Below, piece after piece: positions 25,507-52,649 of a stretch of DNA of 64,000 bases. Each line of letters opens with the position of its first letter. The stretch's first letter is position 1. This DNA is from a virus. Its lineage: Duplodnaviria > Caudoviricetes. Below the pieces are notes generated by a model. It was given only the letters and a program-made list of their open reading frames with translations. It made no database searches and was not told the origin of the DNA. The DNA lies in IMG/VR virus record IMGVR_UViG_3300014695_000002, positions 22,000 to 85,999 of that record; one strand, 5' to 3'. Both the position numbers and the translations under genes were made by a program.

Positions 25507-25535
25507 TTGACATCACAGCTAGAGCATGAGATACT
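25507..25535 (+). promoter_or_regulatory. sigma70-type promoter of candidate ncRNA A
   Basis: TTGACA-17-GATACT. Confidence 0.8.
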
Positions 25536-25541
25536 TCTAAA

Positions 25542-25900
25542 GGTCAGAGAGAATCTGAATCGGCACTGATGGGGTATGCCTCTTGTTATAGGGAGGAGAG
25601 ACTTAGCGTCAGTTGCTTAAACCCCTACTACCGAGGCGATGGGATGGGGCGGGAGAAGCTTGAAGGTCGTTAAACTCCTGTATGGCCGTAGACTTTAGCA
25701 CAAGTAAAGACGATCCATCTGCCGAGGGTGCTACTTCGGGCAGATTACCACACACTCTATTGGTGTGTTCCTATCGAAATTGATAGGCTTGAATTCGGGA
25801 CGCTCAGTATAGTCTTGAAGAGAAGGTATGGGCTTTACTCTGGGGATTCAAGATTAATTTCTTGACCCTGGGGTAGGGCTTTTTATACCTTCTTGAAATC
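25542..25900 (+). ncRNA. candidate large structured ncRNA, copy A
   Basis: No ORF; GC-richer than flanks; multiple hairpins including a long G-U-rich stem 25822-25892; shares an exact 19-mer and collinear motifs with 52200-52614. Confidence 0.65.
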
Positions 25901-25963
25901 GAACTTTCAGTATAGTATAAAAGATATAAGAATTAATAGATAAATAAACATAGGAGTTAAGAT

Positions 25964-26158
25964 ATGAAATTAGAGATTAGATATGATTCTAATAGAAAGG
26001 AGTGGTTTTGTATGTTACCTGTAGACTATACCTCATGGCAAGCTTCAGGTGAGAGCCCCTTAGAAGCGTTTGAGATTTATCTGATTAAGGTTAATGGTTG
26101 TGCTGAAAAACATGAGATTGATTATAAGTGGTGTAAAGAAAGAGGACTGATCTGGTGA
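25964..26158 (+). CDS. hypothetical protein (HicB-like N-terminal pattern)
   Basis: AGGAG RBS; W...LP......ASGESPLEA. Confidence 0.65.
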   Translation: MKLEIRYDSNRKEWFCMLPVDYTSWQASGESPLEAFEIYLIKVNGCAEKHEIDYKWCKERGLIW

Positions 26159-26352
26159 GAGATTATCTGATTATCGTGTTAGCTTTGGTGGCATTCATCC
26201 TGGTGTTTAACTCTATTAACGGTACAAGGGAAGAGAAGATTAATATGAAGCATATGCAAATGATGACTGAGCATTGCAAACAGCAGGGTGCAATTTATTA
26301 TAAAGAGCCTAGTAAGGATGGTATCTGTGTATTGCGAAGAGAGAAACCATGA
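26155..26352 (+). CDS. N-anchored membrane protein
   Basis: TM plus Cys pair. Confidence 0.7.
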   Translation: MRDYLIIVLALVAFILVFNSINGTREEKINMKHMQMMTEHCKQQGAIYYKEPSKDGICVLRREKP

Positions 26353-26636
26353 GTTTGTTTAGTTGGTTCCAAGGAAAACCAAAACAAGTATATTGGTTCA
26401 TGGAGATGGAGAGTAGTAGCAGATTAACAACAGAAGATATTGCAGTTCTCAAAGAATTTCCTCTCTTTTCCGATTTTCAACAAGCTTTGCCCGGAAGACT
26501 ATTGATTAATATAAATAAGATTACGATAAAAGAGGCTGTAAGCTGGATGAGATTTAAAATGCTTTTCGGTAGATGGCCTTCTTGTCGAGAGGCCCGATTA
26601 AATAGAGAATTCTTTAAATCAGGAGTAAAATTATGA
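26349..26636 (+). CDS. hypothetical protein
   Basis: ATGA overlaps. Confidence 0.7.
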   Translation: MSLFSWFQGKPKQVYWFMEMESSSRLTTEDIAVLKEFPLFSDFQQALPGRLLININKITIKEAVSWMRFKMLFGRWPSCREARLNREFFKSGVKL

Positions 26637-26842
26637 GTCGTTGTGCGTGCTGCCAGACTGTACTTACAGTCGGTGAAATGATGTTTGATCTTCCAGACGG
26701 ATCAATGAATGATATCTGCTGGTCGTGTCAAGGTGTTATTGATCATCCTGAGTGCTGTGAAGATCGTGAATACCAATTCGAGGATTATACGGAGGTTCCT
26801 TTCACATCAACTATTACAAAAGCTAAGAAAATTGCTTACTAA
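26633..26842 (+). CDS. Zn-finger protein preceding TerS
   Basis: MSRCACC...DICWSC; AGGAG RBS. Confidence 0.75.
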   Translation: MSRCACCQTVLTVGEMMFDLPDGSMNDICWSCQGVIDHPECCEDREYQFEDYTEVPFTSTITKAKKIAY

Positions 26843-26932
26843 TATTGTAATTATTATTAAACAGGTGTATAATATATTGAATCCTGAGTCTCTGTTAGAG
26901 CGGAGGCTTTACCCTCTGATAGAGAATAATTT

Positions 26933-27274
26933 ATGTCAAACGATAAACCTAAGTCCAAAGGTGGCAGGCCAGTAGGTTCAACCAGCAACCTATCTTCCCG
27001 CCAGCGCAAGCTAAAGTCACTTCTACTCCAAGCATATGAACCTTTTGTCTCTGAGGCAATTGAGGTATGCTTGGAAGTGATGCGTGATAAGAATGAGAAA
27101 GGTCAGACTCGTATTGCTGCGGCACGTCATATCTCAGACCGTGCTTATGAGCTTGTCAACGAAATCCTTACTCCTGAGAAATCTGACAACAACTCAGAAG
27201 ACTCCGATGAGAAAGCTGAAGTGGTTGAAATGAAACCTCGCCTCTCTCTCACTGTAGCTCCAAAGAAAGACTGA
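26933..27274 (+). CDS. putative terminase small subunit
   Basis: KSKGGRPVGSTS N-terminus, helical body ending in RIAAARHI; first gene of the packaging block. Confidence 0.6.
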   Translation: MSNDKPKSKGGRPVGSTSNLSSRQRKLKSLLLQAYEPFVSEAIEVCLEVMRDKNEKGQTRIAAARHISDRAYELVNEILTPEKSDNNSEDSDEKAEVVEMKPRLSLTVAPKKD

Positions 27275-27353
27275 AACACGAATACACGCAAAGCCAAGTG
27301 AACATAATTGTTCTGTAGTCTGGTTATTCTTTATATTTTAAAGGAAATAACTA

Positions 27354-28850
27354 ATGGCAACTCCTCTTGAAGTGTTGAAGTCAAAGGTTGGTATTCTTGC
27401 AGACCCTATTGCGGAATACGTTGCAGCTATCTTAGCTGATTATTCTGGTATTGTTGTTCCACCAGATGCAAGCTCTACTCCTGAACAACCTCCTGTTATT
27501 ACTCCGCCAGTAGAAGTGTCAGGTATCATTCTTGAAGTTGTCTCAAATGATCCTTATGGTAAAGTTCGTATTGTATCAGACAAGCAAATCAAGAAGGGTG
27601 GTAAGGTTAGAATTAACGTAACAGGTCAAGCATTTAATGTTGTTGGTGTGAATGCAGATAGCTCAGTGATTGACCTTGATCAGAAGATCGGCAACCCACA
27701 AGCTGCCTTGAACAGTGGCTACACTGTCATCCTTCCTATCACTGTTCCCCCTGTTGTCACACCTAATCCTGACGCAAGCTCAACTGTCCCTGATGGAAGT
27801 GGTGATTTATCTTACATGCGTAAGAAGGGCCGTATCTTTATCAACCTTGGTATGGGTGCTGGTGCTGACCACGTTCTTCCTGGCAAAGAGGGGACTAACT
27901 ACACCTTCCTAACCGAACCAGAGATTAAGCGTGCAGTAGGTTATGGCTTCAAGCAGTTCCGTGTCGGTTTTATCATGGGACGTGTTTATAAGCGAGCTAA
28001 TAGCCTTGACATGTATCGTGGTATTGATCCAAACGATACCACTCGCAAATACACGCTTGACACGATTATTGATCGGTTGAAGATTTGCAATAAGTACAAT
28101 ACCAAGGTTTTGCTTGACAACCATGTCTATGCTTTCTGGCCTTCCAATGGCGCTCCTAACAAGGTAGAGCTTGGGACTTCTGGCTACACGGCTGAAATGC
28201 TTGCCAATCATTGGTATGGTATCATTCAGGAGCTTAAGAAAGACCCTGAAGCTTGGAACGCTGTGTATGGTTTTGATATTGTCAACGAGCCTTACACTTT
28301 AAGTGATGCTACTTGGTCTAAGTGTGTTCAAGCAGTAATCGACAAGTGTGCTTCTATCTCAGAAGATAAAATCTTTGTTATTGAAGGTATCAGTTATAGC
28401 TCAACCCGTAATTGGGTAGCCAATAATCCTTCACTTTCCAAGATTACCCATCCTCGTGGTAAAGCTTTCCTTGAGTTCTCTGGTCACTTGTATCTTGATG
28501 CCGGTGCTTCAGGTTATTACAGCGGAGATGTCCTTTCTCAGACTGATATTAATAACGGCATCACTTTTGAGACTGTTGGTACTGCACGTCTTGCAGGATT
28601 CAAGAAATGGAAGGATGACAACAAGGTAAATGCCAGCATTGGTGAAAACCTTGTAACCGGGACCTTGACTAATCTGATGAAGGGTGAAAGAAACCTTCTT
28701 GAAGATTGTATCAACAGTGGGATTGACGTTTACCTGTTTGGTATGGGTGACGGATTCGGCTCAGGTAACGCACATAATATTGAACTAAAGACTAGCTCAA
28801 TCGACAACACCAACATGCTTAATCTCGCAATTGAGATGGCTAAAAAATAA
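27354..28850 (+). CDS. GH5 (clan GH-A) endoglycanase with N-terminal anchor, beta domain and Pro/Thr linkers
   Basis: FRVGF, LLDNH, GFDIVNEP (acid/base Glu), EFSGH.Y.D, SIGE (nucleophile Glu). Confidence 0.8.
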   Translation: MATPLEVLKSKVGILADPIAEYVAAILADYSGIVVPPDASSTPEQPPVITPPVEVSGIILEVVSNDPYGKVRIVSDKQIKKGGKVRINVTGQAFNVVGVNADSSVIDLDQKIGNPQAALNSGYTVILPITVPPVVTPNPDASSTVPDGSGDLSYMRKKGRIFINLGMGAGADHVLPGKEGTNYTFLTEPEIKRAVGYGFKQFRVGFIMGRVYKRANSLDMYRGIDPNDTTRKYTLDTIIDRLKICNKYNTKVLLDNHVYAFWPSNGAPNKVELGTSGYTAEMLANHWYGIIQELKKDPEAWNAVYGFDIVNEPYTLSDATWSKCVQAVIDKCASISEDKIFVIEGISYSSTRNWVANNPSLSKITHPRGKAFLEFSGHLYLDAGASGYYSGDVLSQTDINNGITFETVGTARLAGFKKWKDDNKVNASIGENLVTGTLTNLMKGERNLLEDCINSGIDVYLFGMGDGFGSGNAHNIELKTSSIDNTNMLNLAIEMAKK

Positions 28851-28865
28851 TCATAAAGGTGCTTC

Positions 28866-30215
28866 ATGACAGAACGGGAATTGGCTAAGGTAATTAGCCG
28901 CATTGGTTTACGTGGAGCACTGCTTTCTGGTGCTTTTGAGGATACGGTTGGGCAGGATATTAACACTGCCGTAGCTAATGTTCCCGTATACCAACCACTC
29001 AAAAGCGTAGGTTATAATCGTAACGTTGCAATGTTTGGCGACAGTCGTTGTTTCCTCTCCCACTTTGTTAGTGGAAACAACAAGTTCTTTAAAGGCTGGG
29101 GTATCGCCACTTGGGCTCAGACTTACTCTGAGGGTGAAGCAAGTTTCCCTCCAGCCCTGAACTTTGGCGTAGCAGGCGATACCACTAACCAGATGCTAGC
29201 TCGTATTGACACCGCTATTAAAGGTATTGTTGACGCCTCAGCTAACATTGTTGTGATCTTTGCCGGAACGAACGACGTCCCTACTTCCGATATTCCCCTT
29301 GAGCTAACCAAGCAGAATATTCGTGGGATGATTCGTAAGTTTATGGCTAAGGGTATTCTGCCTGTCTTTATGGGTGAGACCCCTCGTGGCCAAGGTTCCT
29401 ATGATCTAGGAAGTCAAGCTAAACGAGATCAACTAAAAGCAATTAGTGATTTTTATCAGAATGAGGTTAGCCTTACTTGTCCTGTTATCAATGCTTGGGA
29501 CTTGTGGGTTGATCCTGCCAGCGGAAGCAATTACTTCCCAAAAGCTGGAATGACTCGTGATGAGATTCACCCGTCAATTGTAGGTGCTCAGGTCATTGGT
29601 AAACCTCTTGGTGAATTGCTTAAGAAATACATTAGCATGTCAAGCTATGAGCTTTACAACAATGCTGTTTACAACTCAGCATCTAATGTGTTTGGTAGCT
29701 TCTCACCTAACCCTCTGTTCCAAGGGACTCCAAGCAACGGTCTTGCTCCAAGCTGGCAACCAAGTCATAGTAACAATGCTGGCTTGACTATTGTCCAGAC
29801 AACCGAAACTGATGCAAGTGGTGTTGTTTGGCAGGCAGCTACTGTTACTGGAACATCTGGTTCTACTTCACCAGAACTCACTTGGTATTCTAACGCAGAT
29901 ATTAGCAAGATGGTTGTTGGACAAAGCTACAAGGCTGTTGGTAAGTTTAAGTCTCAAGGCACTGGCTGTATTGGTGTAGGCCTGGCTATTCTTCAGACTC
30001 CTAACTACTATCAGCTTCTTGATGGTGATGCTCCAGACGTTAGCCTTTCTTGGCCTACCTATCCAGTTGGTGGTACTAAAGAAAGTCCAGCTTATGTGCA
30101 TACTTCTACTACCAATGGTGCTCTGACTCGCTGGATCGTTAACATTGCTCCAAGTGCTACTGTAAACTTCACTGTCAAGTTCGCTAAGACTGGCATTGTC
30201 AAAATCGACGTCTGA
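28866..30215 (+). CDS. SGNH/GDSL hydrolase with C-terminal beta-sandwich
   Basis: FGDSR block I, NFGVAGDT block II, AGTND block III, DEIHP block V. Confidence 0.85.
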   Translation: MTERELAKVISRIGLRGALLSGAFEDTVGQDINTAVANVPVYQPLKSVGYNRNVAMFGDSRCFLSHFVSGNNKFFKGWGIATWAQTYSEGEASFPPALNFGVAGDTTNQMLARIDTAIKGIVDASANIVVIFAGTNDVPTSDIPLELTKQNIRGMIRKFMAKGILPVFMGETPRGQGSYDLGSQAKRDQLKAISDFYQNEVSLTCPVINAWDLWVDPASGSNYFPKAGMTRDEIHPSIVGAQVIGKPLGELLKKYISMSSYELYNNAVYNSASNVFGSFSPNPLFQGTPSNGLAPSWQPSHSNNAGLTIVQTTETDASGVVWQAATVTGTSGSTSPELTWYSNADISKMVVGQSYKAVGKFKSQGTGCIGVGLAILQTPNYYQLLDGDAPDVSLSWPTYPVGGTKESPAYVHTSTTNGALTRWIVNIAPSATVNFTVKFAKTGIVKIDV

Positions 30216-30223
30216 GGTGGCTG

Positions 30224-30757
30224 ATGGATAAAGTAGCTTTAGTATCCAGAGTTGGTTTAGTCGGAGCTTTGCAAGCCGGTGCTTTTGATGCGTCAGGACA
30301 CTCAAATCCTGTCGTTAGTAAAGCATCTGAACTTGTTAACGATGTAGGCTTCATTACTCAAGCAGATGTCTCTACTGTAACCAAAACCTCTCAGCTACAA
30401 AACGACAGCGGATTTACCAACAATGCTTTCGTTATGCTGTATCCTAATGGAACTGAAGCTGCTCCAGCTACTTTGACAAAAGGTCAGCGTATTGAAATAC
30501 CTTCACCATTTCCTTCTGGTAGTCAATTCTGGCCTATTCTTGAATTGAAGATCAATGGGATGTGGTCAGATGTTGGCTATATTTATGCTTCTGGTGGCTA
30601 CGGGTGTGTAGCACGCCAGTTCGGCGATCTTATCGTAGTTATGTCTGGCAGTGCTGCTATCGCTACCACTCCGTATAATACTCTGAATCCAAACACGACT
30701 TATAGTGGTAACTTAGACAACCTTCCTTATCGAGTCAAGGTAATTAGGTTGTTTTAA
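30224..30757 (+). CDS. short fibre-like protein
   Basis: Two S(E/Q)LxND(V/S)GF(I)T repeats; C-terminal YPNGTEAAPA...SPFP domain typical of Pseudomonas phage fibres. Confidence 0.7.
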   Translation: MDKVALVSRVGLVGALQAGAFDASGHSNPVVSKASELVNDVGFITQADVSTVTKTSQLQNDSGFTNNAFVMLYPNGTEAAPATLTKGQRIEIPSPFPSGSQFWPILELKINGMWSDVGYIYASGGYGCVARQFGDLIVVMSGSAAIATTPYNTLNPNTTYSGNLDNLPYRVKVIRLF

Positions 30758-30918
30758 AGAATTGCGGGTTTTCTCTCCTCCTTATCCCGCAACGCTTGCC
30801 ACGTAATGGCAGGTCTGGCTCACCCACGAGCCTTCTTTTCAGATAGCATTCAGAAAGTGTTATGCGGAAAGGGAAAATCCTATAAGAGAGATGGACCTCC
30901 AATAAAGAGGCAACACAA

Positions 30919-31086
30919 ATGATTAATCTAATTCTAATCTTTCTACTGGTTGCTCTACTAGCCCCTCTTTTGGGTCTTGGTGCTCTTGCTGGCACTGCTC
31001 TTACTTTTGTTAAAATCTTGTTTGTTGTTCTTCTCGTTCTCATCATCGTAAACTACGCTGGTCCGAACGGAAGACGTTGGTGGTAA
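30919..31086 (+). CDS. DUF1328 (UPF0391/YtjA-like) small membrane protein, 55 aa
   Basis: Hand translation MINLILIFLLVALLAPLLGLGALAGTALTFVKILFVVLLVLII...; GAGG RBS. Confidence 0.75.
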   Translation: MINLILIFLLVALLAPLLGLGALAGTALTFVKILFVVLLVLIIVNYAGPNGRRWW

Positions 31087-31418
31087 TGTGAACAAGCTTC
31101 CCCTAGTGGAGAAATTTAAGCGTTCTAAAGCTTACTATCATTTCTGTATGTTTAAGTTAAAACTAATCTGTTTGCTTCGTAAAGCAGAAGCTAAAATCAA
31201 GCAGAGAAGTAAAGGTTAGCGCAATGCTACCCAGTGGAGAGGCAGGCAGAATGGCCTTGCGAGAAGACAACATAGGCAGCGTGGTTAGTCTTCACCAATT
31301 TTTGTACATACACTTTAAACCTTCCCTTTAGCTAGCACGGAAGCGAATTTGAAGTGTAGCTTTAGCACTATAAATATATAAGCACCTGAGTTCAAATAAT
31401 TATTAAAGGTGTTTTATC

Positions 31419-31712
31419 ATGGCGGATACGCTTAATGATGTCACAATGCAAGCTAACACTTATGTTGACTTGTACAGTCTGACAGGTATTGCCCCAGGTA
31501 CAAGTTTAATCATCAACAATAAGAGTTCTGCTGTTGTGTTCCTTCAAGTGAGAGCATCACAGCCAAGCTCAGCTTCAAATGACGGATGGCCTCTTCGTAG
31601 CTCTCCTGCTCCTGACACTTGGGTGACTCTTACAGATGTTCCTGTTGGCAGTAGAGTATGGGCAAAAGGTACGGCTGCTGGACGACTTTTTGTCCAAGTC
31701 TACGAGGAGTAA
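31419..31712 (+). CDS. putative small virion beta-sandwich protein
   Basis: YVDLY..TGI..G..L.I.NKS...VWAKG; precedes the long fibre gene. Confidence 0.7.
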   Translation: MADTLNDVTMQANTYVDLYSLTGIAPGTSLIINNKSSAVVFLQVRASQPSSASNDGWPLRSSPAPDTWVTLTDVPVGSRVWAKGTAAGRLFVQVYEE

Positions 31713-31715
31713 GCT

Positions 31716-33941
31716 ATGTTTATTCCTGATAAGTCAAAAGTAAATATTATCGATGCTTCTGGAATGACAGCCGATTGGCCTATTCAGCAGCTTCCTTATA
31801 AAGCTTCAGATGGTACAATTAAAGGTTCTGGTCTTAGGATTCTAACCAGTGGTACAGTGCTCGCTCCTGTAGGCTTTGCTGTAGAATCTGGCTCTGTTGA
31901 CTTTGGTGATGTGCTAAGACTCTCTGAGTCTGCTGGTTTTCTAGCTTTTGAAAACATGGTAGATAAAAGTAAATATCAACTTCTAGATTATGCAGTCCCT
32001 CGTGATGCGGCATCCTCTAAACCATTTTACTTTAAACTTGCCGGACCTGAAGTGAGATTTGAAGCGAATAAATCTTCTGCTTCAGTTATCAAGACTAACC
32101 CCCTTAGCTGGGAATATACCACTAAGCTCACTGCTCGTACCAATGCTCTTATCTTCAATGCAGCAGAGAAGATGAACAATGTTCGTCTACGGATTACTGA
32201 TAAGAAGAGCGGGGTAGCAATCAAGTATTATCCATCTAAGTCGGCTTGGGTAGATGGTTCTGGTGGTACTATTCTTGATGTGGGCGAAAACAACCTAGAC
32301 TTCCAAGATACTGCGGTAATTTTCTCTGCCAACACTGATATTATTTTTGATATTCAAGCTGATAATATTGCTTTGGTTGGTGGTACTATCCCTTGGTTTG
32401 CAGGATTGGTTCAGCAGGGAAGTTTTGTTGGCGTAGCGGATGTTTTTGACGTATCTGCATTGCAAGATCAAATCAATAAGCAGAAGGCATCTTTCAACGG
32501 TGATTATAGCGCCCTTACAGGCGTTCCTACGAGCTTTCCGCCTTCTCCCCATACGCATGTAGTGGATGACATTACCGACCTTCCTAGCAAGCTTACAGAG
32601 CTTTCTAGCGCTATATCTCAAAACACTCAAAGCCTGAATGGATTGGCTAAGGTTGCAACGACTGCAAGCTACACTGATCTTGTAAATCAACCCTTTATTC
32701 CAACCGCTACAAGTCAGATTGAGAATAATAGCGGATACATTACGATCCAACATACTCATCCAATAAGTGACGTTGTTGGTTTGCAAGATGCTTTAAACTC
32801 TAAAGCTGGAAGTAATGAGTCTATTCCCGTCTCTCGTGTGACAGGTTTAGCTACAGTTGCGACTAGTGGAAGCTACAATGATCTTAGCAACAAGCCAACT
32901 ATTCCAACCAATGTAAGTCAGCTTGCAAATGATAGTGGTTATATTACTGCTGCTCAAGTGCCTCAGCAGACAGTAACTTGGGCAAGTATTACAGGTAAAC
33001 CAGTAACATTTACACCTTCTGCTCACCAGCATCCTATTAGTGATATAACTGGTTTGCAGAACACGCTAAATGCAAAAATAGATGCTTCTACTCAGATTAG
33101 CTACAACAATCTGACAGATAAGCCTAATCTATTTTCTGGCAATTATAACGATCTGATCAATAAGCCAACGTTGTTTTCTGGTAGCTATGCAGACCTTATC
33201 AATAAACCTGTTTATGCCACTGTAGCAACTACTGGCAGTTATAATGACCTCTTGAACAAACCTGTAATTCCTACAGTTAACTATCCCGTGACTTCTGTTG
33301 CTGGTAAGACTGGTGCTGTGACTTTGGTTGCGGGTGACATTAGTGGTCTAGCTTCTGTAGCAACTACTGGAATGTATTCGAGTCTTTCTGGATTGCCTAC
33401 TATCCCTGCTGCTCAGGTTAACAGTGATTGGAATGCAACAAGTGGTGTTGCTCAGATTCTAAATAAACCAAGCCTTTTCAGTGGTTCTTGGACTGATCTG
33501 ACAAACAAGCCCACTACATTTACTCCGTCTGCGCATCAACACCCCATCAGTGATATTACCAATCTTCAAACAACGCTTGACACTAAAATTACTGCTGCAA
33601 GTTTACCGATAACAAGGCGTGCAGACAATAGCTTAGTGTCTCGCACAAAGGTTAAGTACTACAAAGTCACAAGCGACAGCACAAGCTCTATTTGGACTGT
33701 TAATCTGGGAAGTGATTTCAGCGAGATTCTAGATATTCAAGTTCAGGCAGAGTCAGTTAGTACCCTTCTAGGTGGCATTAGACAGGTAAGTATAAATAGT
33801 TGGACTTCTACCTCAACGACTATAACGGGTATGACTTTTGGTTCAAACACCATCACTACAATTCTTATTGGCGGCTCTCAGGGTCTAGCTTTAGTCCCAG
33901 GAACAGTTGTCCGTTGTCGAGTTGAAGGCGTAGGCGGTTGA
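31716..33941 (+). CDS. long repeat-rich fibre protein
   Basis: Repeats SY.DL.NKP, H.HPISDI.GL, SQL.NDSGYIT, VTSVAGKTGAVTL, QVNSDWNA. Confidence 0.8.
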   Translation: MFIPDKSKVNIIDASGMTADWPIQQLPYKASDGTIKGSGLRILTSGTVLAPVGFAVESGSVDFGDVLRLSESAGFLAFENMVDKSKYQLLDYAVPRDAASSKPFYFKLAGPEVRFEANKSSASVIKTNPLSWEYTTKLTARTNALIFNAAEKMNNVRLRITDKKSGVAIKYYPSKSAWVDGSGGTILDVGENNLDFQDTAVIFSANTDIIFDIQADNIALVGGTIPWFAGLVQQGSFVGVADVFDVSALQDQINKQKASFNGDYSALTGVPTSFPPSPHTHVVDDITDLPSKLTELSSAISQNTQSLNGLAKVATTASYTDLVNQPFIPTATSQIENNSGYITIQHTHPISDVVGLQDALNSKAGSNESIPVSRVTGLATVATSGSYNDLSNKPTIPTNVSQLANDSGYITAAQVPQQTVTWASITGKPVTFTPSAHQHPISDITGLQNTLNAKIDASTQISYNNLTDKPNLFSGNYNDLINKPTLFSGSYADLINKPVYATVATTGSYNDLLNKPVIPTVNYPVTSVAGKTGAVTLVAGDISGLASVATTGMYSSLSGLPTIPAAQVNSDWNATSGVAQILNKPSLFSGSWTDLTNKPTTFTPSAHQHPISDITNLQTTLDTKITAASLPITRRADNSLVSRTKVKYYKVTSDSTSSIWTVNLGSDFSEILDIQVQAESVSTLLGGIRQVSINSWTSTSTTITGMTFGSNTITTILIGGSQGLALVPGTVVRCRVEGVGG

Positions 33942-33965
33942 CAAGTACATTTTATCTGCTATAAT
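33938..33965 (+). promoter_or_regulatory. consensus sigma70 promoter overlapping the fibre stop codon
   Basis: TTGACA-16-TATAAT. Confidence 0.8.
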
Positions 33966-34125
33966 TGTTTACGCGTGGTCCCGGCGATACGGGACAACCA
34001 AAGACTGCGCAACGGTCTGAAAAACGTGTAACAGGTAAGACTTCTACAGCAAATCACTCTTTTAAGAGGGTTTGTTATGCGTCCCCTGTTGCGACTTAAC
34101 TGGGTGATTTGACTATAGAGGTTTT

Positions 34126-34817
34126 ATGAAACTGCTTTGTGATTTTGGAATCAATGACTTAAATTATTCTGTTTTAGAAAGAGAGATTATTTCGGGAAAG
34201 GTTCAAACAGAAAATATAAGGTCTTATTTGCGTGCCCCTTCTATCAAACGTGGCATGACATGATTCATAGGTGTTATTCTAATAAAATGACATCAAGAAG
34301 AATGAGGTACTTAGGTTGTTCGGTTAATCTTGCTTGGTCGAGAGCAACAGAATTTAAAAAGTGGATGTTAGAAAATAATTGGAACGAATCCCTTAGACTT
34401 GATAAAGATATTCTTTTCCCTGGAAATAAAGAGTATGGTCCAGATACTTGTGCATTAGTACCTCACTATGTGAACGCAAGCATTGTTCTGCCAGATAGCT
34501 CGGATTCGTTTTTGCCGTATGGAGTTACTTATCAGAGTGTATATAAAGACGATCCACGTCCTGCGATAAAAAGGTATCAAGTTAGATGTTGTACTGGAGG
34601 TCCTGATAGCTTTAGAAGACATCTAGGAAGTTTTTCTTGTTCGATGGAAGCTCATAAAGTTTGGCAATTAGCAAAGATAGAATCACTTGATAACACTTTA
34701 AGCCATTATTCTAAAGAATCTTGCTACAGAAAAGATGTTGTCGATGCAATAGAGTTCAGAATAGCTATGATACTAAGCGATCTAAACCTAGGTATTGAAA
34801 CTAAAAGTTTTAAATAG
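34126..34817 (+). CDS. HNH homing endonuclease split by a -1 frameshift (programmed, or pseudogene)
   Basis: ATG 34126 frame MKLLCDFGINDLNY..SGK is homologous to the N-terminus of 61284..61883; -1 frame continues GSNRKYKVLFACPFYQTWHDMIHRCY; GGGAAAG at 34194-34200. Confidence 0.75.
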
Positions 34818-35006: not shown

Positions 35007-35966
35007 ATGTCTCAAGTTGAATTAATTCAGTATGGTGATTTGCTTGTAGAGCATCGTCCTACATCAGGTTGCTGGTTCCATCGTATTGGTACGAGTTTAG
35101 AAGCTTTTGGTGAAGATATCCCTAAGCCTAAAACTACAACCATATGGTTTAGTCGCCTATCAGCTATTCCGCTTGAAAAGCTTCGTGAATACAAAGCTAA
35201 CGGAATTAAGCTGATACATGATATGGATGACCATTTCATCTTGTCTTCAAACCATATTCTTAAAGACACTTACCGTCAGCAGAATATGCCAGAGCGCTTC
35301 AAAGCTTTGCTTGAGCTTGCAGATGTTGTCACTGTCACCAATAGCTATCTTGCGTCTGAGCTAAAGCCTTATGTGAATGGTGAAATTGTCGTAGTGCCAA
35401 ATGCCATCAAGTTTGATCAAGGTCAATTTTTTATCAACCAAGATTTTGAATCTGGTACACCTTTGACGTATGTAGGCGGAAACACGCACTTGCATGATTT
35501 GGAACTTATCCGTAAAGCCGTTCCTTTGAATGAGCTTACAATTGGTGGAGTTAACAAGGATTGCCAAGTCTGGGAAGAGGTTACAAAGCGATTTCGTGGA
35601 GTATCTACTAAACCCCAGGCTACGTTAGATAGTTACATGGGTTTGTATGAAGGTCATAAGATTGCACTAGCTCCACTTGAAAAGAACAATTTCAATGCTT
35701 GTAAAAGCAATCTGAAAGTCTTGGAAGCAGGAGCTAAAGGATTACCTATTGTATGCTCTCGTGTACACCCTTACCTCAATGATCTTGATAAAGATGTGGT
35801 AATGTACGGGAACAGCGAGAATAGCTGGCGTAGCGCTGTACAGAAGCTTTTGAAAGATGATGAGTATCGTAAAGATAAAGGTCTTGAGCTTGCTGAGCAT
35901 GTTCGTAAGCACTATCAGTTAGATGACGCCAACAAGATCAGACGGCAAATTATCGAGTCGCTATGA
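35007..35966 (+). CDS. GT-B fold glycosyltransferase (GT4-like)
   Basis: HDMDD, ADVVTVTNSYL, VVPNAI, LAPLEKNNFNACKSNLKVLEAGAKGLPIVCS. Confidence 0.85.
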   Translation: MSQVELIQYGDLLVEHRPTSGCWFHRIGTSLEAFGEDIPKPKTTTIWFSRLSAIPLEKLREYKANGIKLIHDMDDHFILSSNHILKDTYRQQNMPERFKALLELADVVTVTNSYLASELKPYVNGEIVVVPNAIKFDQGQFFINQDFESGTPLTYVGGNTHLHDLELIRKAVPLNELTIGGVNKDCQVWEEVTKRFRGVSTKPQATLDSYMGLYEGHKIALAPLEKNNFNACKSNLKVLEAGAKGLPIVCSRVHPYLNDLDKDVVMYGNSENSWRSAVQKLLKDDEYRKDKGLELAEHVRKHYQLDDANKIRRQIIESL

Positions 35967-44792: not shown

Positions 44793-44796
44793 CACA

Positions 44797-45816: not shown

Positions 45817-45829
45817 TAGGAGAAATTAA

Positions 45830-46360
45830 ATGTCAGATTATGCACTAGCTACTTATAACCCCGTTGACGTTGTTATCATTCTTGAACGTAACGGTTTTTC
45901 ACATGTCATTACTGGCGTAAGCGAAGATCAAATTGTAAGCATTGAACGTACTGATGCTTGGAATGAATCTGTAGGTGCTTATGGTAACACCACCCGTATC
46001 TACAACCCTGTTTGGGATAAAGCAGATATCACCATTCCTCTTCAGCAAACCTCTGAAAGTAATGATGTATTGAACGCTCTGTTCCACAATGATATTCGCA
46101 ACATCAGCAGCGAAAATCTGTTCTCTATCACTATCAAAGATAACAGTGGTCGTAGCCTTCATTATGGTTTTGAAGCTTATGTTGCTCGCAAGCCTTCCGC
46201 AACCTATGGTAATGGCATGAACAACCGTGAGTGGATGGTTCGAGTTAACAAACTTGAAGACACCCTTGGCGGTAACAGCAAAATGTCTCAGTCTACCGCC
46301 GATGAAGTTGTTGGTTTTGGTGGTGATCCTATCGCTGCTCGCTGGATTCGTAACGCTTAA
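45830..46360 (+). CDS. tail tube protein (DUF3277-like)
   Basis: TYNP.DV, ITIPLQQTSESN, IKDNSG motifs. Confidence 0.85.
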   Translation: MSDYALATYNPVDVVIILERNGFSHVITGVSEDQIVSIERTDAWNESVGAYGNTTRIYNPVWDKADITIPLQQTSESNDVLNALFHNDIRNISSENLFSITIKDNSGRSLHYGFEAYVARKPSATYGNGMNNREWMVRVNKLEDTLGGNSKMSQSTADEVVGFGGDPIAARWIRNA

Positions 46361-46418
46361 ATAAGAAACAAGGGGCTGTAGGGGAGGCTTTTCTCCCCTC
46401 TCTCCATAAGGAGATAAT

Positions 46419-46919
46419 ATGGCCTACGCAATGTACGATCCATCATCAGTGTATGTCTTTCTTGCAGGAGTTATGCAAGTAGAAGATGTGACAGATGGAA
46501 CATTCATTGAGATTACAAAAGACTCTGATATTTTTAACACCACTGTTAGTAGTGATGGTCAAGTCTATAGGATGAAAGTCCCTGGTAACACTTATACAGT
46601 AACCCTATCTCTTCAATCAGTTAGCACCTCTAGTCAAATCTTGCAGTATTTAAGCATTGCAGATCAGACTACAGGTGTTGCAATGTTTCCCTTGATTATC
46701 AAAGATACAAAAGGCTCAAGTCTATTCTTTGCTACATCTTGTTGGGTGCAGAGTCAACCAAGCCTTTCATTCTCAGAAGAAGTAGAAGCTCGGGTTTGGA
46801 CTATTAAAGCAACTGGTGTGACTATTGTATTTGGTAATAATTATGGATCATCCTCTTTGACTGAAGATGTTATCAACGGTCTTATTGGATCAATTCCCAA
46901 TCTCTCAGGAATACTATAA
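46419..46919 (+). CDS. tube-like protein (paralogue)
   Basis: YDPSSV, VTLSLQSVS.S, IKDTKG. Confidence 0.8.
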   Translation: MAYAMYDPSSVYVFLAGVMQVEDVTDGTFIEITKDSDIFNTTVSSDGQVYRMKVPGNTYTVTLSLQSVSTSSQILQYLSIADQTTGVAMFPLIIKDTKGSSLFFATSCWVQSQPSLSFSEEVEARVWTIKATGVTIVFGNNYGSSSLTEDVINGLIGSIPNLSGIL

Positions 46920-47395
46920 TGTCTGAAATCTCTACTTATAGTCCTGAGTCTGTTTTGCTAATCCTTGGTGGTGCGGCATTAACAGGTTGGAATAGCATCT
47001 CTATCAGTCGTGATGCTGATCAGTTCAATGTTATCAAGGGTATTCGTGGTAAACACACACGTTCAAGGAATTACGATAACAGTGCAACGATTGTCCTAGA
47101 ATTACCCTTTTCATCTGATTGGAATTATATCCTCTCTCAGATCGTAACTCAAGATAGTCAATCTGCTACAGGCCGCTGTGAGATTCTTTTGAAAGACAAC
47201 AGTGGTAATAGCATCTTTAAAACCACGCAAGCTTATGTTCGTAAGTTTGCTGATGTAACCTTTGATGCAACTATCAGCAGCCGTATCTGGAGTATTCAAT
47301 GTCTTGATGTCGATGTTTACACTGTAGGTGGTTCTACTTCACCAGCAGCATCTTTAGTAAGTAATGTTTACAACCGTGTAAGCAGTTTATTTTAA
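46919..47395 (+). CDS. tube-like protein (paralogue)
   Basis: TYSPESV, KDNSG, RIWSIQC. Confidence 0.8.
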   Translation: MSEISTYSPESVLLILGGAALTGWNSISISRDADQFNVIKGIRGKHTRSRNYDNSATIVLELPFSSDWNYILSQIVTQDSQSATGRCEILLKDNSGNSIFKTTQAYVRKFADVTFDATISSRIWSIQCLDVDVYTVGGSTSPAASLVSNVYNRVSSLF

Positions 47396-47418
47396 CCATA
47401 CGAATTTAGGAGATTCAA

Positions 47419-47763
47419 ATGGCTCTAATGACTAAACAAGTAACCGTTGGTGGTTACAAGAATAATGAAGGTGAAGTTCAAGACTTCCTCTATACTTTCA
47501 AGAAGTTTCCTGCTACCAAAGGTCTTGATGTCTATATTCGCTTTGGTAAGATCATGGCGGGTGATCTTGAGATGTCAGCAGATTTCGTTAAAGAAGTTAT
47601 CTGCAACAGTGCATCAATTGGCTCTACTGGCAAGATGACTCCTGAGAAGTTTGATGATCATTTCTCTGGTCAACTAACCCATATGATGAATGTCTATAAC
47701 GAAGTGTTGGCATTTAACTTTGATGTAAATTTTACGGAAGACGATTCCGAAGAGACGAACTAA
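47419..47763 (+). CDS. tail assembly chaperone (G)
   Basis: Position before the tape measure gene; acidic end. Confidence 0.8.
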   Translation: MALMTKQVTVGGYKNNEGEVQDFLYTFKKFPATKGLDVYIRFGKIMAGDLEMSADFVKEVICNSASIGSTGKMTPEKFDDHFSGQLTHMMNVYNEVLAFNFDVNFTEDDSEETN

Positions 47764-48014
47764 AACGTCAGGAATCGTCACCCCTTGATGTAAAAATAGC
47801 CGAAGAGTTTTCTCAGGATTGGCTGATATTTAAAGTTATAACGCACAAGCTAAAGCTCTGCACATTACATGAACTTCAAACGATCTATTCTCTTGATCAA
47901 CTATACGATTTTGAAGAAATGATAGAAGCTCACGAAGCAATGCACGAGTCAGCTAGAACAAAAGCAGAAGCCAAAGCTCGTGCTGAGGTGGAGCAAAACA
48001 AAGGGCGTAAATAA
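47724..48014 (+). CDS. tail assembly chaperone extension (GT) via -1 frameshift
   Basis: A AAT TTT heptamer at 47727-33; -1 frame opens at 47724 with no start codon and runs to TAA 48014 (TLHELQTIYSLDQLYDFEE). Confidence 0.8.
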   Translation, partial: CKFYGRRFRRDELKRQESSPLDVKIAEEFSQDWLIFKVITHKLKLCTLHELQTIYSLDQLYDFEEMIEAHEAMHESARTKAEAKARAEVEQNKGRK

Positions 48015-50092
48015 TGGCCGGACAAAGCATTGCTCAGTTCTGGGCAGACCTTGGAATCAGGGTACAGCCTAACGAGATTAGGAAGGTTGACAAGCTTCTT
48101 GCTCAAATGGAAGCAAAATTTAAAGCTTTTTCAAAATCTCAAAGTGCGTTAAAGCTTGATCTTGGTGATTTTTTAAAATTTGATCATCTAAAGCTTCGTA
48201 CTTCATTACAAAGAACGTTTGATCAACTAAGTAAGACCACTTATTTTGAACTTCGTAATTTTAGAGTAGATCAGGCCCACCTTACAAGTCAACTACGTAC
48301 AGCGATGGAACGAGCTTCTGCTACGACTCGTTTTCGTCCCCGTGTTGATGAAAGAGGTATTAGGGAAAGTGGACGTGGTGAAGGTGCTAGACACGCTCGT
48401 ATGGGGCTCTCAGCGGGCTTTGGTGCAGCAGGTGGACTAACCCTAGGCCGTGTCTACGGAACAGCAGCAGGGCTTGCTCTAGGCGGTTATGGCTTATCTG
48501 CGCTTAACCAACGAAATCAACAGGTTCAGTCTGCTGAGATGACTACGCAAGCAGTAGTTGAACAAGCCGGCGGTACTGCCAAGGAAGGTACTCAAGCTTT
48601 TAATTGGTATCGCCAACTAGCTAACCGTGTTGGTTTCAATTACCTAGAATCTGCTGATCAGTATAACAACGTACTATCAGGCATCACAGGAGCAGGCGGT
48701 ACAGTTGAACGTGGTCAAAACATCTTCAAAGGGTTTGCTGAGTATGGCCGTGTAAACCATATCGACTCAGAGCGCCAAAAACGAGTCTTCCGAGCTATCT
48801 CACAGATTGCTGGTAAAGACCAACTTATGTCAGAGGAACTTACTGGTCAGCTAGCAGAATCTTTGCCTGGAGCTGTATCGCTATTCTCCGCCGCATATCA
48901 AAGACAAACCGGTCAAAGTCTTGGTGTTGATGAAAAGCTAACTGGTAGTGATGCTATTAAAGCTCTTCAAGCTGCCATGAAGAAGCGAAATGTTCGTGGT
49001 GACATTCTTGATGTAGCTGCTCAGATCGCGTCTGAACGGGCAGCCCCAAGTCTTGCAATGTCAGCACGTACTTCTCAGTCTGAACAAGCTCGCTTTGAAA
49101 ATACTGCCAATGATTTAGTTCGCTTAGCTAACCAATCTGGTGTTGAGGAAGGTTATGCTCGGCTATTCAGAACTCTCAATGATGGTTTACAAGAGTCAGG
49201 CCCTCTAGTTAAAGCTCTATCAGAAGGGTTTAATAACCTCACTGAACGTGTTCGTGTTCTCATGCTTATTCCTCAATCATTCCAACGTCTTCTACAAGGC
49301 CGTGACAGTTTCATCACTGACATGATTGGTTTGGACAAAGCTGAAGAGGTTCGTAAGCTATTTGGTGATATGGAGACTTTTGGTAAAAACTTTTCAGAGC
49401 TTACTGGAACAATTGCTGAAGGGTGGAAACTTATCTTCCAACAGATGCAGCAAATTGACGGCTTGAGCATCACTAAGGTAATGGCTAAGCAGTTAGGTAT
49501 TGCTACTGATGTTGTTAAAGGCATCAATAGCGCTGCTAAAGGAGATTATGGCACTGCTGGTGATATGGCATCAAAAGCAGGAAAAGGTTATATACAAACA
49601 CTAACAACGATTCCTCGCGGCATTCTGGATTTTGGTGCAGATAAGCTTGGATTTGGTGATAATGCTGTTAGTAAATTGCTAGGCTTGAATCCAGACCCTA
49701 AAGCTCCAGGCGGAAGTGCACTAAACAGTGCAGAGTTGCCCGGTATTACGCCTATTAGTGGTTATGCTGTTGGTGTACCTAACTATCAGAATCCTTTCCA
49801 AAACATCCCATCCATACCTTACGATCAAGTAGATGCACAAGGTCGTGTTAATGGAGCCATCCAAAGATATACTGATCCAACCTTAATGCAAAATCAAATG
49901 CAAAAGGATGTGGCAGCTAATACTACTAATAACAATGATAACCGTGTCAACGTAACTGTTGGTGATATAACTGTACAAAGTCAAGCAACGGATGCAGCAG
50001 GTATTGGTTCTGATATTGGTCAGCAGCTTCGTGATGTATTAAATAACACTTTTAGTGACACACGCATCAACTACCCTTCTATTGGACGTTAA
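48014..50092 (+). CDS. tape measure protein
   Basis: 692 aa, Ala/Gly-rich helical; EELTGQLAESLPGA tape-measure motif. Confidence 0.9.
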   Translation: MAGQSIAQFWADLGIRVQPNEIRKVDKLLAQMEAKFKAFSKSQSALKLDLGDFLKFDHLKLRTSLQRTFDQLSKTTYFELRNFRVDQAHLTSQLRTAMERASATTRFRPRVDERGIRESGRGEGARHARMGLSAGFGAAGGLTLGRVYGTAAGLALGGYGLSALNQRNQQVQSAEMTTQAVVEQAGGTAKEGTQAFNWYRQLANRVGFNYLESADQYNNVLSGITGAGGTVERGQNIFKGFAEYGRVNHIDSERQKRVFRAISQIAGKDQLMSEELTGQLAESLPGAVSLFSAAYQRQTGQSLGVDEKLTGSDAIKALQAAMKKRNVRGDILDVAAQIASERAAPSLAMSARTSQSEQARFENTANDLVRLANQSGVEEGYARLFRTLNDGLQESGPLVKALSEGFNNLTERVRVLMLIPQSFQRLLQGRDSFITDMIGLDKAEEVRKLFGDMETFGKNFSELTGTIAEGWKLIFQQMQQIDGLSITKVMAKQLGIATDVVKGINSAAKGDYGTAGDMASKAGKGYIQTLTTIPRGILDFGADKLGFGDNAVSKLLGLNPDPKAPGGSALNSAELPGITPISGYAVGVPNYQNPFQNIPSIPYDQVDAQGRVNGAIQRYTDPTLMQNQMQKDVAANTTNNNDNRVNVTVGDITVQSQATDAAGIGSDIGQQLRDVLNNTFSDTRINYPSIGR

Positions 50093-50129
50093 CTAAACGT
50101 GGGGAAGTATTCTCCATAAGGAGTCTTTC

Positions 50130-50939
50130 TTGAGTTTAGGTTTGAAATACACAAGTGAAAACAAAGAAGACGGTGAGAGTTTTTTCATCGTCTTTGATGC
50201 TATCCAAAGCTACACCAAAACAATTAAAGGCTCAGTAACCCGTCATCCTGTTGCTGGTGGTAAACTAATCACTTCAAACTACACAAGGGATAACCCAACC
50301 TTTGGTTTTACTGGGGTGATTAGTGTAGCCGATATCTCAAATTTTATGGAGGTTGTTAGGGACGAAGAAAACGCAATTGCCAACAATGCTAATCTTCAGC
50401 CAGGAGAGGTTATTGTATTAGATAACACCTCCACACTAACAAATCTAATACCTTCATCTATTAGTCAATTCCTACCTAATTCAAACGCTAGTGTTTCTCT
50501 TGCTACAGACCTTATCAGAACAAACTATAAAGACTTTGTAACTGAAGTTCTTGAACGTCTAATGTCTGGTGAGAAATATGATGAGTCTAAGCAGAGGATT
50601 AAAACATTCATTCGCCCAATCAAGCTTTATGAATTTATAGATAAAAGCTTAGACAAGGTGATTGACAACGTTGTTCTAACATCCTTCTCTGTAAAAGAAG
50701 ATGTTGATACCGGCGATTGCCTTATCTGTGAGCTTGAGTTTGAACAAGTTAAGTTTGTAAGCTTAAAAACTTCTGCACTACCTGCTGACGTTGTAGGCAC
50801 CCTTAAAAAGAAGTCCACAGCTAAGCAGAATAAGGGCTCTGTAAACTCTAAGACTACCTCTGTACTTGATGCAGAGGCTGAGAATAAAGACGATACAGAC
50901 AAGCTCAGAAAGGCCGTACAGACAGGCGGGGCTAACTAA
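50130..50939 (+). CDS. baseplate tube-initiator/Dit-like protein
   Basis: VTRHPV..G...T, L.FEQV.FV; TTG start. Confidence 0.75.
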   Translation: MSLGLKYTSENKEDGESFFIVFDAIQSYTKTIKGSVTRHPVAGGKLITSNYTRDNPTFGFTGVISVADISNFMEVVRDEENAIANNANLQPGEVIVLDNTSTLTNLIPSSISQFLPNSNASVSLATDLIRTNYKDFVTEVLERLMSGEKYDESKQRIKTFIRPIKLYEFIDKSLDKVIDNVVLTSFSVKEDVDTGDCLICELEFEQVKFVSLKTSALPADVVGTLKKKSTAKQNKGSVNSKTTSVLDAEAENKDDTDKLRKAVQTGGAN

Positions 50940-51280
50940 TGGCAAGTTATGATTACGTAGCACTGCCCTTATATGCAGACAGTTTCTATGCCTACAGCGT
51001 AAGTCTTGAGGGAATCACCTATTCAATTGAAATTCTCTACAACGAAAGAAATAAACTCTGGCATATGTCATTGTTTACAGAGGATGGGGGACCAATTGTC
51101 CAAGGCGTCGCTATGGTTCCCCAGTATCCAATATTGCAGAATTACAAGATTGAGAATTTATCAGGGTTTTTCTGGCTTACACCAGTACCGTCATTGACTT
51201 CAGAAAAGTATATTACTGAGCCTGAATCTTTGAATCAATATTACACCTTCAAGTACATTACTAACTTTGTTGATGATTAA
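50939..51280 (+). CDS. baseplate protein
   Basis: YN.R...W.MSL...G..IV.GV motif. Confidence 0.75.
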   Translation: MASYDYVALPLYADSFYAYSVSLEGITYSIEILYNERNKLWHMSLFTEDGGPIVQGVAMVPQYPILQNYKIENLSGFFWLTPVPSLTSEKYITEPESLNQYYTFKYITNFVDD

Positions 51281-51294
51281 GGATAACGCCCATT

Positions 51295-52191
51295 ATGAAG
51301 TATAAAGACTATTACATTAATAATGGGTATCAGCTTGTTATTGGAGATTACAAGAATGATCCAAACAATGGAGTCTTGATTGATAATCTCCAAATCACTT
51401 TTGAAGTAAGTAAGTCTATCAGTAATAAAGACAAGACAAACTCAGCTACTATTGAGATTTATAACCTTGATGAGCAGACTATAGCACTGCTTGACAAAGA
51501 GTTTATTGTTGCTGACTTCTATGCTGGATTTGAGAATCTTGAGATTAAGAGGTTATTTGCTGGAGAGGTTGTGCAGGCCACTACACGAAAGCAAGGAACG
51601 GATGTTGTAACTCAAATCCGTATGGGGGCGGGTTACTCTCAGGTTAATCATGGTGTTTTAAACCAATTAGTTAGCCCTGGTCGTACTGTTAAGGAAGTGT
51701 ATGAGGAGCTTCGTAAGAATATCTCTGGTATTAACAGGGGTGTTTATAATGGAGCTAATCTAAACAATCCTGTCATTGATGGATACCCCATATACGGTAA
51801 TGCTAAATCTGAACTTAACAAGCTTAGCCAAGCTACTCAGACACAATGGCAGATTGATGGCGATGCTTTGTATGTCTCTGATGCTGGTGTAGGTTGGATG
51901 AGTGATAAATCAAGAGCTATCGTTATCTCTCCTGAATCTGGATTGATTGATATTGCATACAAGGTAGCTGCTGAGGGTTATAAAAAGAAACAAGACCCAG
52001 CTAAGACTGAAGGTATTCAGTTTAAGGCACTATTAAATCCTAATGTCATCCCTGGCTGTATCATCAAATTAGAACAAGATGATCAAACTCTTGATGGCTT
52101 CTATACTGTCACCTCTACAAGATTTACTGGAGACTTCAGGGGTAATCCTTGGTATGTTGAGTGTCGTTGTGGTAAGAAGATTAGTAGTTAA
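51295..52191 (+). CDS. baseplate hub (gp27/gpD-like)
   Basis: ITFEVSKS...NSATIEIYNL, WQIDGD, LLNP...PG...L...DGFY.V. Confidence 0.85.
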   Translation: MKYKDYYINNGYQLVIGDYKNDPNNGVLIDNLQITFEVSKSISNKDKTNSATIEIYNLDEQTIALLDKEFIVADFYAGFENLEIKRLFAGEVVQATTRKQGTDVVTQIRMGAGYSQVNHGVLNQLVSPGRTVKEVYEELRKNISGINRGVYNGANLNNPVIDGYPIYGNAKSELNKLSQATQTQWQIDGDALYVSDAGVGWMSDKSRAIVISPESGLIDIAYKVAAEGYKKKQDPAKTEGIQFKALLNPNVIPGCIIKLEQDDQTLDGFYTVTSTRFTGDFRGNPWYVECRCGKKISS

Positions 52192-52199
52192 TTAGATAT

Positions 52200-52614
52200 A
52201 AGATTTATACTTGCTACTGATTTTGAAGAATTTTGGGTAAAGAAACCCATACCGTTCATAAGCTAGCTTTCTAGCTCCTAGAACGATACTTGGCTTGATT
52301 ACCCCATTCTCCAACATACAGCCGTTAAGCCAAAGGCCCTTGCTACTTGATATGTTAGATATTGCCCGAAGGCTGCGTTTAGAGACGGCTCGCAATAACG
52401 CCTGGGTGCTATAGACTAATACACAGCTATAACTTTGACTGCCTTCCCCGGTGTTTCGGGTCATACCCTGTTCAGTCGTCACTCAGTTGGTCTTTGGTTT
52501 GCGTGGTAGACCTTTAAATCATATCGCCCCCGTCTACCTCCCTATAACAAGAGGCTTACCGTCCAATATGATCGATTTGAAAGAATGTCGTTACCGTTAG
52601 ACTTTCAAAATGTA
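52200..52614 (-). ncRNA. candidate large structured ncRNA, copy B, antisense to the tail operon
   Basis: Promoter at 52621-52649; many hairpins; shares GCCTCTTGTTATAGGGAGG and collinear motifs with copy A. Confidence 0.65.
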
Positions 52615-52620
52615 TTAACC

Positions 52621-52649
52621 ATTGTACAGGCGATAGTGTCTCCTGTCAA
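52621..52649 (-). promoter_or_regulatory. sigma70-type antisense promoter
   Basis: TTGACA-17-TACAAT on the - strand. Confidence 0.85.

What the first reader, a model, noticed from the sequence alone, without database searches (positions are those of the whole stretch)
25507..52649. Two dispersed homologous large structured non-coding RNAs: a candidate new phage ncRNA family
Seen: the ORF-free segments 25542-25900 (+) and 52200-52614 (-), 27 kb apart and in opposite orientation, each follow a sigma70 promoter. They share four motifs in the same order: an exact 19-mer GCCTCTTGTTATAGGGAGG (25578-96; rc 52537-55); CTTCGGGCA (25734-42; rc 52363-71); GGTATGGG (25825-32; rc 52246-53); and TTCTT(G/CA)AAATC (25890-900; rc 52219-30). 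In both, the 19-mer is preceded by GGT and followed by an AGAC...GTC hairpin and then AAACC. The spacers differ in sequence and length yet remain hairpin-rich. Inference: a conserved RNA scaffold with variable inserts, as expected for paralogous functional RNAs such as decoys, antitoxin mimics or guide/scaffold RNAs. I do not recognise them as tRNA, tmRNA, RNase P, 6S or a group I intron.
Basis: partly seen in the sequence, partly recalled or inferred. Interest (0 to 1): 0.9.

Follow-up and report, generated by a model that had tools for sequence, protein, structure and literature searches.

The report
Swappable twin-tag structured phage RNAs
This bacterial virus carries two genes for large, intricately folded non-coding RNAs of an uncatalogued family; each RNA shows one short sequence tag twice, and related viruses swap whole versions of the RNA at the same spot, which hints at an unknown role in recognising a host molecule.

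Summary
Both elements are real structured-RNA genes in an 86-kb PAK_P1/Felix-like myovirus, but not a simple duplicated scaffold. A (25542-25916 +) and B (52614-52210 -) fold far better than shuffles (z -4.4, -4.2), B covaries across homologues, and neither hits Rfam. At the same two sites, relatives carry at least six sequence-unrelated RNA types of like architecture, exchanged horizontally against the flanking-gene tree. A 280-nt type, linked to B and other types by shared modules, occurs unannotated, usually twice, in about 180 cultured Pseudomonas myophage records and has covarying pseudoknots. The repeat differs freely between members but the two copies always match. No internal guide, phage reverse transcriptase or bacterial homologue was found; expression is unshown. 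Best guess: a trans-acting RNA showing a swappable tag twice to a host partner (counter-defence decoy). The scan noted the Pseudomonas type before (e1-1962357); copy B, with no downstream gene, argues against a pure leader role.

The parts
25507..25535 (+). sigma70-type promoter of RNA A (extended -10)
   Evidence: -35 and -10 positions kept while the spacer diverges in L001, L009 and G002
25542..25916 (+). RNA A, about 375 nt (ends inferred: promoter to second repeat copy)
   Evidence: z -4.4; 98-99% identical in L001 and L009; replaced by the unrelated type E at the same site in G002
25544..25558 (+). site-specific 5' hairpin of A; homology between RNA types stops right after it, at ATCG (25559-25562)
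   Evidence: compensatory stem change in L001, L009 and G002
25563..25621 (+). P1 domain of A: stem 25563-71 with 25607-16, enclosing the shared hairpin, followed by TTAAA
   Evidence: same ATCG-P1-TTAAA layout in types B-F
25573..25596 (+). 24-nt block shared with B (hairpin plus probable pseudoknot strand)
25804..25813 (+). repeat copy 1 of A (10 nt)
   Evidence: 0 of 50 shuffles reach this length
25822..25892 (+). long rod hairpin of A between the two repeat copies
   Evidence: weak local match to the rod of the Pseudomonas-type model (E 0.06)
25907..25916 (+). repeat copy 2 of A, at the 3' end
52621..52649 (-). sigma70-type promoter of RNA B, antisense to the late tail operon
   Evidence: kept in all 12 B-site loci whatever RNA type follows
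52210..52614 (-). RNA B, about 405 nt, inserted between the baseplate hub and spike genes; no gene follows on its strand
   Evidence: z -4.2; 15 pairs with two-sided change, 98.8% paired across 4 homologues; the genes abut (gap -4 to 9 nt) in distant relatives
52576..52609 (-). site-specific 5' hairpin of B, shared with types C, D and F at this site
52513..52573 (-). P1 domain of B (stem 52573-64 with 52526-17, 4 covarying pairs) enclosing the 24-nt block 52560-52537, then TAAA
52437..52477 (-). core module (stem plus hairpin) resembling the Pseudomonas-phage type
   Evidence: CM local match, 9.5 bits, E 5e-4 in a 1.5-kb search; pairwise z 2.6-4.5 to PAK_P2 copy 1 and M5.1
52339..52347 (-). 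repeat copy 1 of B (9 nt); both copies change A to G together in three homologues
52225..52312 (-). long rod hairpin of B with a GNRA-receptor-like internal loop (resemblance from own knowledge)
   Evidence: 7 covarying pairs in its upper helices
52210..52218 (-). repeat copy 2 of B, at the 3' end
51295..52191 (+). baseplate hub gene (flank)
   Evidence: PHROG 196
52669..53403 (+). baseplate spike gene (flank)

Best explanation
A and B are free-standing phage ncRNA genes of one mosaic family, transcribed by host RNA polymerase. A pseudoknotted 5' core and a long rod position a short tag twice: once at an internal loop or junction and once at the 3' end. Shown: folding, covariation, the matched tags, and horizontal cassette exchange at fixed sites. 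Inferred: the RNA works in trans, and both tags must match because both bind the same partner, most likely a host factor that reads a short single-stranded RNA sequence (a defence nuclease, toxin or RNA-binding protein, possibly dimeric). The RNA would then be a decoy or inhibitor. Different types give different specificities, so phages keep two different versions and swap them as they swap counter-defence genes.
For: Matched repeat in all 18 members first tested, with at least 14 different sequences, and new matched repeats in held-out members. Four unrelated types (B, C, D, F) alternate behind one promoter and 5' hairpin at the B site, two (A, E) at the A site. A B-only clade is rejected on hub and spike trees (p-AU 7e-12 and 6e-4). 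B in G002 is 94% identical in DNA while its flanking proteins are 55% and 68% identical. Types B, C and F have no gene downstream on their strand. 121 records keep PAK_P2 copy 2 at 99% identity or more. No complement of the tag inside the RNA above chance, and no excess of genomic matches, so any partner is external.
Against: No partner or target was found, and no protein is common to carriers yet absent from non-carriers (a weak test because some presumed non-carriers later proved to be carriers). The tags match no consistent tRNA feature. A fixed host protein would be expected to fix the tag sequence, so the hypothesis needs many partners. Expression is not shown. The A, C, E and H types are tied to the others mostly by layout, site and repeat, not by statistics.
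Confidence: 0.35

Rival explanations
1. Self-processing RNA: the pseudoknotted core is a ribozyme or processing scaffold that docks repeat 1 and then repeat 2 by strand exchange, cutting at equivalent positions and releasing or circularising the 100-180-nt rod.
For: Explains why identity, not sequence, of the two copies is kept. In the Pseudomonas type the short stem strand before each copy could pair with the same strand after copy 1 (alignment, inspection). Invariant unpaired bases and two crossing helices. Copy 1 of ventosus and PAK_P2 lies divergent from an RNA-ligase operon.
Against: No internal guide for the repeat; no Rfam ribozyme hit; group I helix order not met on inspection.
Confidence: 0.2
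2. Selfish or hitch-hiking cassette: the RNA gene spreads by homing driven by neighbouring endonucleases, and the matched repeat is a by-product of slippage around the rod palindrome.
For: Clean insertion between abutting genes; horizontal exchange; HNH genes directly beside the RNA in L004 and L005 and a putative endonuclease after the KIL1 copy.
Against: Most copies have no adjacent endonuclease; the repeat is internal, not flanking; strong covariation over the whole RNA; kept in two copies across several genera; no RVT_1 reverse transcriptase in six carrier genomes.
Confidence: 0.13
3. Cis-acting leader, such as a put-like antiterminator or translational switch, for the genes that follow.
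For: Starts at the promoter; A and the Pseudomonas copies are followed by genes, and in several the second repeat abuts the next ribosome-binding site.
Against: Types B, C and F have no downstream gene on their strand and read into the antisense of the tail operon; PAK_P2 copy 1 is followed at once by a new promoter.
Confidence: 0.12
4. RNA-only oligomer like ROOL or GOLLD, with the twin tags as equivalent intermolecular contacts.
For: Large, pseudoknotted, phage-borne; the Pseudomonas copy 2 lies under 1 kb upstream of the tRNA cluster, as ROOL and GOLLD often do (PMC12286853).
Against: No complement for kissing within the RNA; no Rfam GOLLD or ROOL hit; half their size; the window's phage has no tRNA genes.
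Confidence: 0.12
5. Template or decoy for a host reverse transcriptase, with the repeats as template-jump sites as in DRT2.
For: Size (about 280 nt), pseudoknot and a 96-180-nt segment bounded by repeats recall the DRT2 ncRNA (PMC12039810).
Against: Concatemers give no conserved open frame (5 of 19 open, no more than shuffles); no phage RT; DRT2 boundaries are a fixed ACA with the pseudoknot downstream of the template.
Confidence: 0.05

Closest known systems
ROOL and GOLLD ornate phage RNAs (PMC12286853)
   Same: Large, multi-pseudoknot, phage-encoded, unknown function; some copies lie near tRNA clusters.
   Different: No Rfam match; 280-450 nt against about 660 and over 800 nt; found in lytic myoviruses of the PAK_P1 group; has twin co-varying tags and swappable unrelated alleles, not described for these RNAs in the passages read.
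DRT2 ncRNA (PMC12039810) and UG27 ncRNA arrays (10.64898/2026.09.22.753630)
   Same: About 280 nt with a pseudoknot and a repeat-bounded segment (DRT2); structure-conserved, sequence-diverse units with a long hairpin (UG27).
   Different: No reverse transcriptase in carriers; repeats are variable 7-13-mers, not fixed motifs; no concatemer ORF; single promoter-driven genes, not arrays.
Type III antitoxin mimics such as PhiTE pseudo-ToxI (own knowledge)
   Same: Phage RNA with a pseudoknot and repeated sequence that could decoy a host toxin.
   Different: ToxI-type units are 35-60-nt tandem repeats; here only a 7-13-nt tag repeats, 96-180 nt apart, and no bacterial source locus was found.
HK022 put antiterminator RNAs (own knowledge; named in e1-1962357)
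   Same: Two diverged copies per phage at promoter starts.
   Different: put is about 70 nt with two hairpins and needs downstream genes; B, C and F have none.
PAK_P3 sRNA1, sRNA2 and antisense RNAs (PMC4933390, PMC10914365)
   Same: Expressed ncRNAs of a related myovirus; PAK_P3 as07 is antisense at the same hub-spike junction.
   Different: PAK_P3 has no insert there and no match to the family by BLAST or CM; its sRNAs are 120-210-nt processed species without a TSS.

Membership tests
Any Rfam 15 family (GOLLD, ROOL, OLE, RNase P, tmRNA, 6S, group I/II, HEARO, ribozymes) | covariance-model match at gathering score | tested here: not met
   window; types B, C, D; no hit on the elements even at E 5
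ROOL/GOLLD | size above about 600 nt | tested here: not met
   277-455 nt
ROOL/GOLLD | location near tRNA islands | tested here: inconclusive
   met for Pseudomonas copy 2; no tRNA in G000, G001 or G002
ROOL/GOLLD | RNA-only homo-oligomer | not testable with these tools
   needs cryo-EM or mass photometry
tRNA/tmRNA | ARAGORN call | tested here: not met
DRT2/UG27 RT-template RNA | cognate reverse transcriptase in the locus or genome | tested here: not met
   PF00078 absent from six carriers; a very divergent RT is not excluded
DRT2 ncRNA | repeat-to-repeat concatemer gives a stop-free ORF | tested here: not met
Group I intron | P3/P7 helix order, interruption of a host gene, internal guide | tested here: not met
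   intergenic; hairpin lies between the two crossing strands in another order (inspection); no guide
Type III antitoxin mimic | tandem 35-60-nt pseudoknot repeats matching a host locus | tested here: not met
put-like antiterminator | lies upstream of genes on the same strand | tested here: not met
   not met for B, C and F; met for A, D, G and H
RaK2-like jumbo-phage large RNA (scan notes) | match of this family's model in RaK2 | tested here: inconclusive
   no hit, but the model also misses A and B genome-wide
OMEGA/HEARO guide RNA | linked IscB or TnpB nuclease | tested here: inconclusive
   neighbours are ordinary phage HNH or unknown proteins; no dedicated IscB/TnpB profile search was run

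The most novel reading that the evidence does not exclude
A new class of programmable phage RNA: a conserved pseudoknotted machine whose specificity lies in a short tag present twice per molecule and exchanged between phages as whole cassettes. It acts either as a tunable counter-defence decoy or as a protein-free enzyme that excises and circularises its own rod.
Probability: 0.4. Interest if true: 0.92.

Novelty: categorically new. Interest (0 to 1): 0.8.

Why it matters
The family sits unannotated, usually in two copies, in well-studied and therapy-relevant Pseudomonas phages (PAK_P2, PAK_P4, JG004, PaP1, K8, KIL, phiPsa), so it can be tested at once with existing phage-host pairs and published infection RNA-seq. 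A short tag that varies freely but stays identical in two places, on an RNA gene swapped between phage lineages like an allele under selection, has no counterpart among the catalogued bacterial or phage RNAs I could test. It points to an RNA-level arms race or to new RNA chemistry.

Tried and rejected
Rfam at gathering and E-value thresholds: nothing on the elements. BLASTn of A, B and F against cultured phages: nothing; the link came through the rod of type D. Metagenome scan with the 18-mer: one true A copy (L009), five chance hits. Sequencing runs: no RNA holder listed on record; four runs guessed as RNA gave only low-depth contigs, one 151-nt contig inside A, and no joint between the repeats, which is no evidence either way. 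A loose promoter-plus-repeat descriptor gave many chance hits, so an 8-mer repeat alone is not diagnostic. Anticodon-loop mimicry: a few tags resemble loops, but there is no consistent match to phage tRNAs. Pairing of the tag to the shared 24-nt loop is possible in A and B but not above chance. The genome contigs pattern scan gave only chance hits and was truncated. Plasmids: no match. A whole-window CM search without filters failed technically. The supplement of the viral candidate-RNA catalogue PMC10690425 is not held, so an unnamed listing there is not excluded. Literature searches found no description.
Full report
Setting. The window is bases 22000-85999 of an 86-kb myovirus with Felix-O1/PAK_P1-like gene order. 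Its terminase is about 50% identical to those of Pseudomonas phages M1 and phiPMW. It has no tRNA genes. The host is not known; runs that hold the DNA include plant, silage, fermentation, freshwater and wastewater samples.

Observation. The shared block is 24 nt and is essentially all that the best A-B alignment contains. Both segments fold better than every shuffle (z -4.38 and -4.15). Rfam finds nothing on them. Of the other motifs, the 9-mer is a UUCG tetraloop lost in B homologues, and the 8-mer is on opposite strands of the two rods.

Homologues of A and B. A occurs at 98-99% in two other contigs, whose 5' hairpin shows a compensatory change. B occurs at 94, 92 and 83%. Across four B sequences a 103-pair structure is 98.8% paired with 15 two-sided changes, against 0 or 1 when the partners are slid. 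The P1 stem and rod covary. The two proposed pseudoknots in B are invariant or nearly so and are therefore unproven in this type.

Cassette exchange. In distant relatives the hub and spike genes abut. In 12 close relatives an antisense promoter and a 5' hairpin are inserted there, followed by one of four unrelated-looking RNAs: B, C (L003, L073), D (L004, L075-77) or F (L069, L071, L072). In most pairs homology between types ends at or just before the TCG after the hairpin. At the A site, G002 has a further type, E. C and D also fold well (z -3.3, -3.7). Types A-F begin TCG, then a 9-10-bp stem, then TTAAA. Types are scattered on the trees of both flanking proteins; a B clade is rejected (p-AU 7e-12 on hub, 6e-4 on spike), as are C and D on hub. 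The RNA genes therefore move between phage lineages as cassettes.

Wider family. The rod of D led to Pseudomonas phages ventosus and Ep020. That 280-295-nt type (G) matches 187 phage records, mostly Pakpunavirus, Otagovirus and Flaumdravirus, usually at two places and unannotated. PAK_P3 lacks it. Ten G sequences give 34 of 56 pairs with two-sided changes, including two crossing helices, so pseudoknots are well supported there. A G model finds the D rods at E 1e-11 and 1e-10 and a core module of B locally. Pairwise links are A-B z 8-10, B-F 4-5, D-F 8, D-G 8-10 and B-G about 4. C, E and a further type H in G005 and G008 are tied in by site, layout and repeat only. Calling them one family is firm for B, D, F and G, rests on the 24-nt block and layout for A, and is an inference for C, E and H.

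The hallmark. Every member has an exact 7-13-nt direct repeat, with copy 2 at the 3' end and copy 1 96-180 nt upstream, flanking the rod. Single cases are not always beyond chance (C: 12 of 50 shuffles), but presence in 18 of 18, at a fixed position and with at least 14 different sequences, is. Members found afterwards carried new matched repeats. In B both copies change together. L280 joins a D'-like core to the repeat of D. In the window the copies are 25804-13 and 25907-16 (A), and 52347-39 and 52218-10 (B). The tag has no complement inside the RNA above chance and no excess of matches in its genome. In most G members copy 1 lies in a hairpin loop.

Mechanism. Shown: structure, matched tags, exchange, and absence of a downstream gene for B, C and F. 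Not shown: transcription, ends, partner, function. Identity without a fixed sequence means either that both copies meet one variable partner or that they take turns in one site. I favour an external partner and a counter-defence decoy role (0.35), because allele swapping at fixed promoter sites with two different versions per genome is how phage accessory counter-defence genes behave (own knowledge). Self-processing (0.2), a selfish cassette (0.13), a leader role (0.12), an RNA-only oligomer (0.12) and an RT template (0.05) remain open. No RVT_1 domain occurs in six carriers and concatemers of the repeat unit have no conserved frame.

Known systems. It works most like ROOL and GOLLD in being a large ornate phage RNA but fails their models and size. 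It is not a DRT2 or UG27 template, not PAK_P3 sRNA1 or sRNA2, and is not discussed in the main text of the PAK_P4 transcriptome paper. The scan had noted the G type and its doubled tag in another genome (e1-1962357), which I read only after finding it here. The RaK2-family RNA in the scan notes was not linked.

Verdict. A real, widespread, apparently undescribed structured RNA family with an unusual twin-tag design; function open; directly testable in standard Pseudomonas phages.

Noticed in passing
window 27354-33941: GH5 glycosidase (498 aa), lipase/SGNH protein (449 aa) and a 741-aa tail-fibre-like gene lie upstream of the packaging genes, far from the tail module.
   Followed up: no
window 35007-35966: Glycosyltransferase gene (PHROG 7162) just upstream of the terminase.
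   Followed up: no
window 57017-57970: Glycine-rich 317-aa tail protein with a G+C-rich repeat tract; relatives swap this tail-fibre cassette.
   Followed up: no
L067 2044-4905, L072 1765-5143: The tape-measure gene is split by an HNH gene in two relatives, with non-coding gaps on both sides: a possible intron with a homing endonuclease.
   Followed up: no
window 9464-9990, 10177-10925, 31087-31418, 33942-34259: Further ORF-poor gaps, one with a 25-nt direct repeat (9973 and 10237); no match to the RNA types.
   Followed up: partly
L075 8980-9279, L077 9175-9480: D-type RNAs at the B site are followed by a PHROG 2315 protein of about 100 aa (unknown function), or by a frameshifted HNH gene in L004.
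   Followed up: partly
L043 2855-3156 (PAK_P3): An RNA-seq-annotated antisense RNA spans the hub-spike junction in PAK_P3, the place where B is inserted here.
   Followed up: partly
window 14259-19024: dCMP deaminase, ClpP-like protease, HNH and PhoH genes in the leftward block; the genome has no tRNA genes, unlike many relatives.
   Followed up: no
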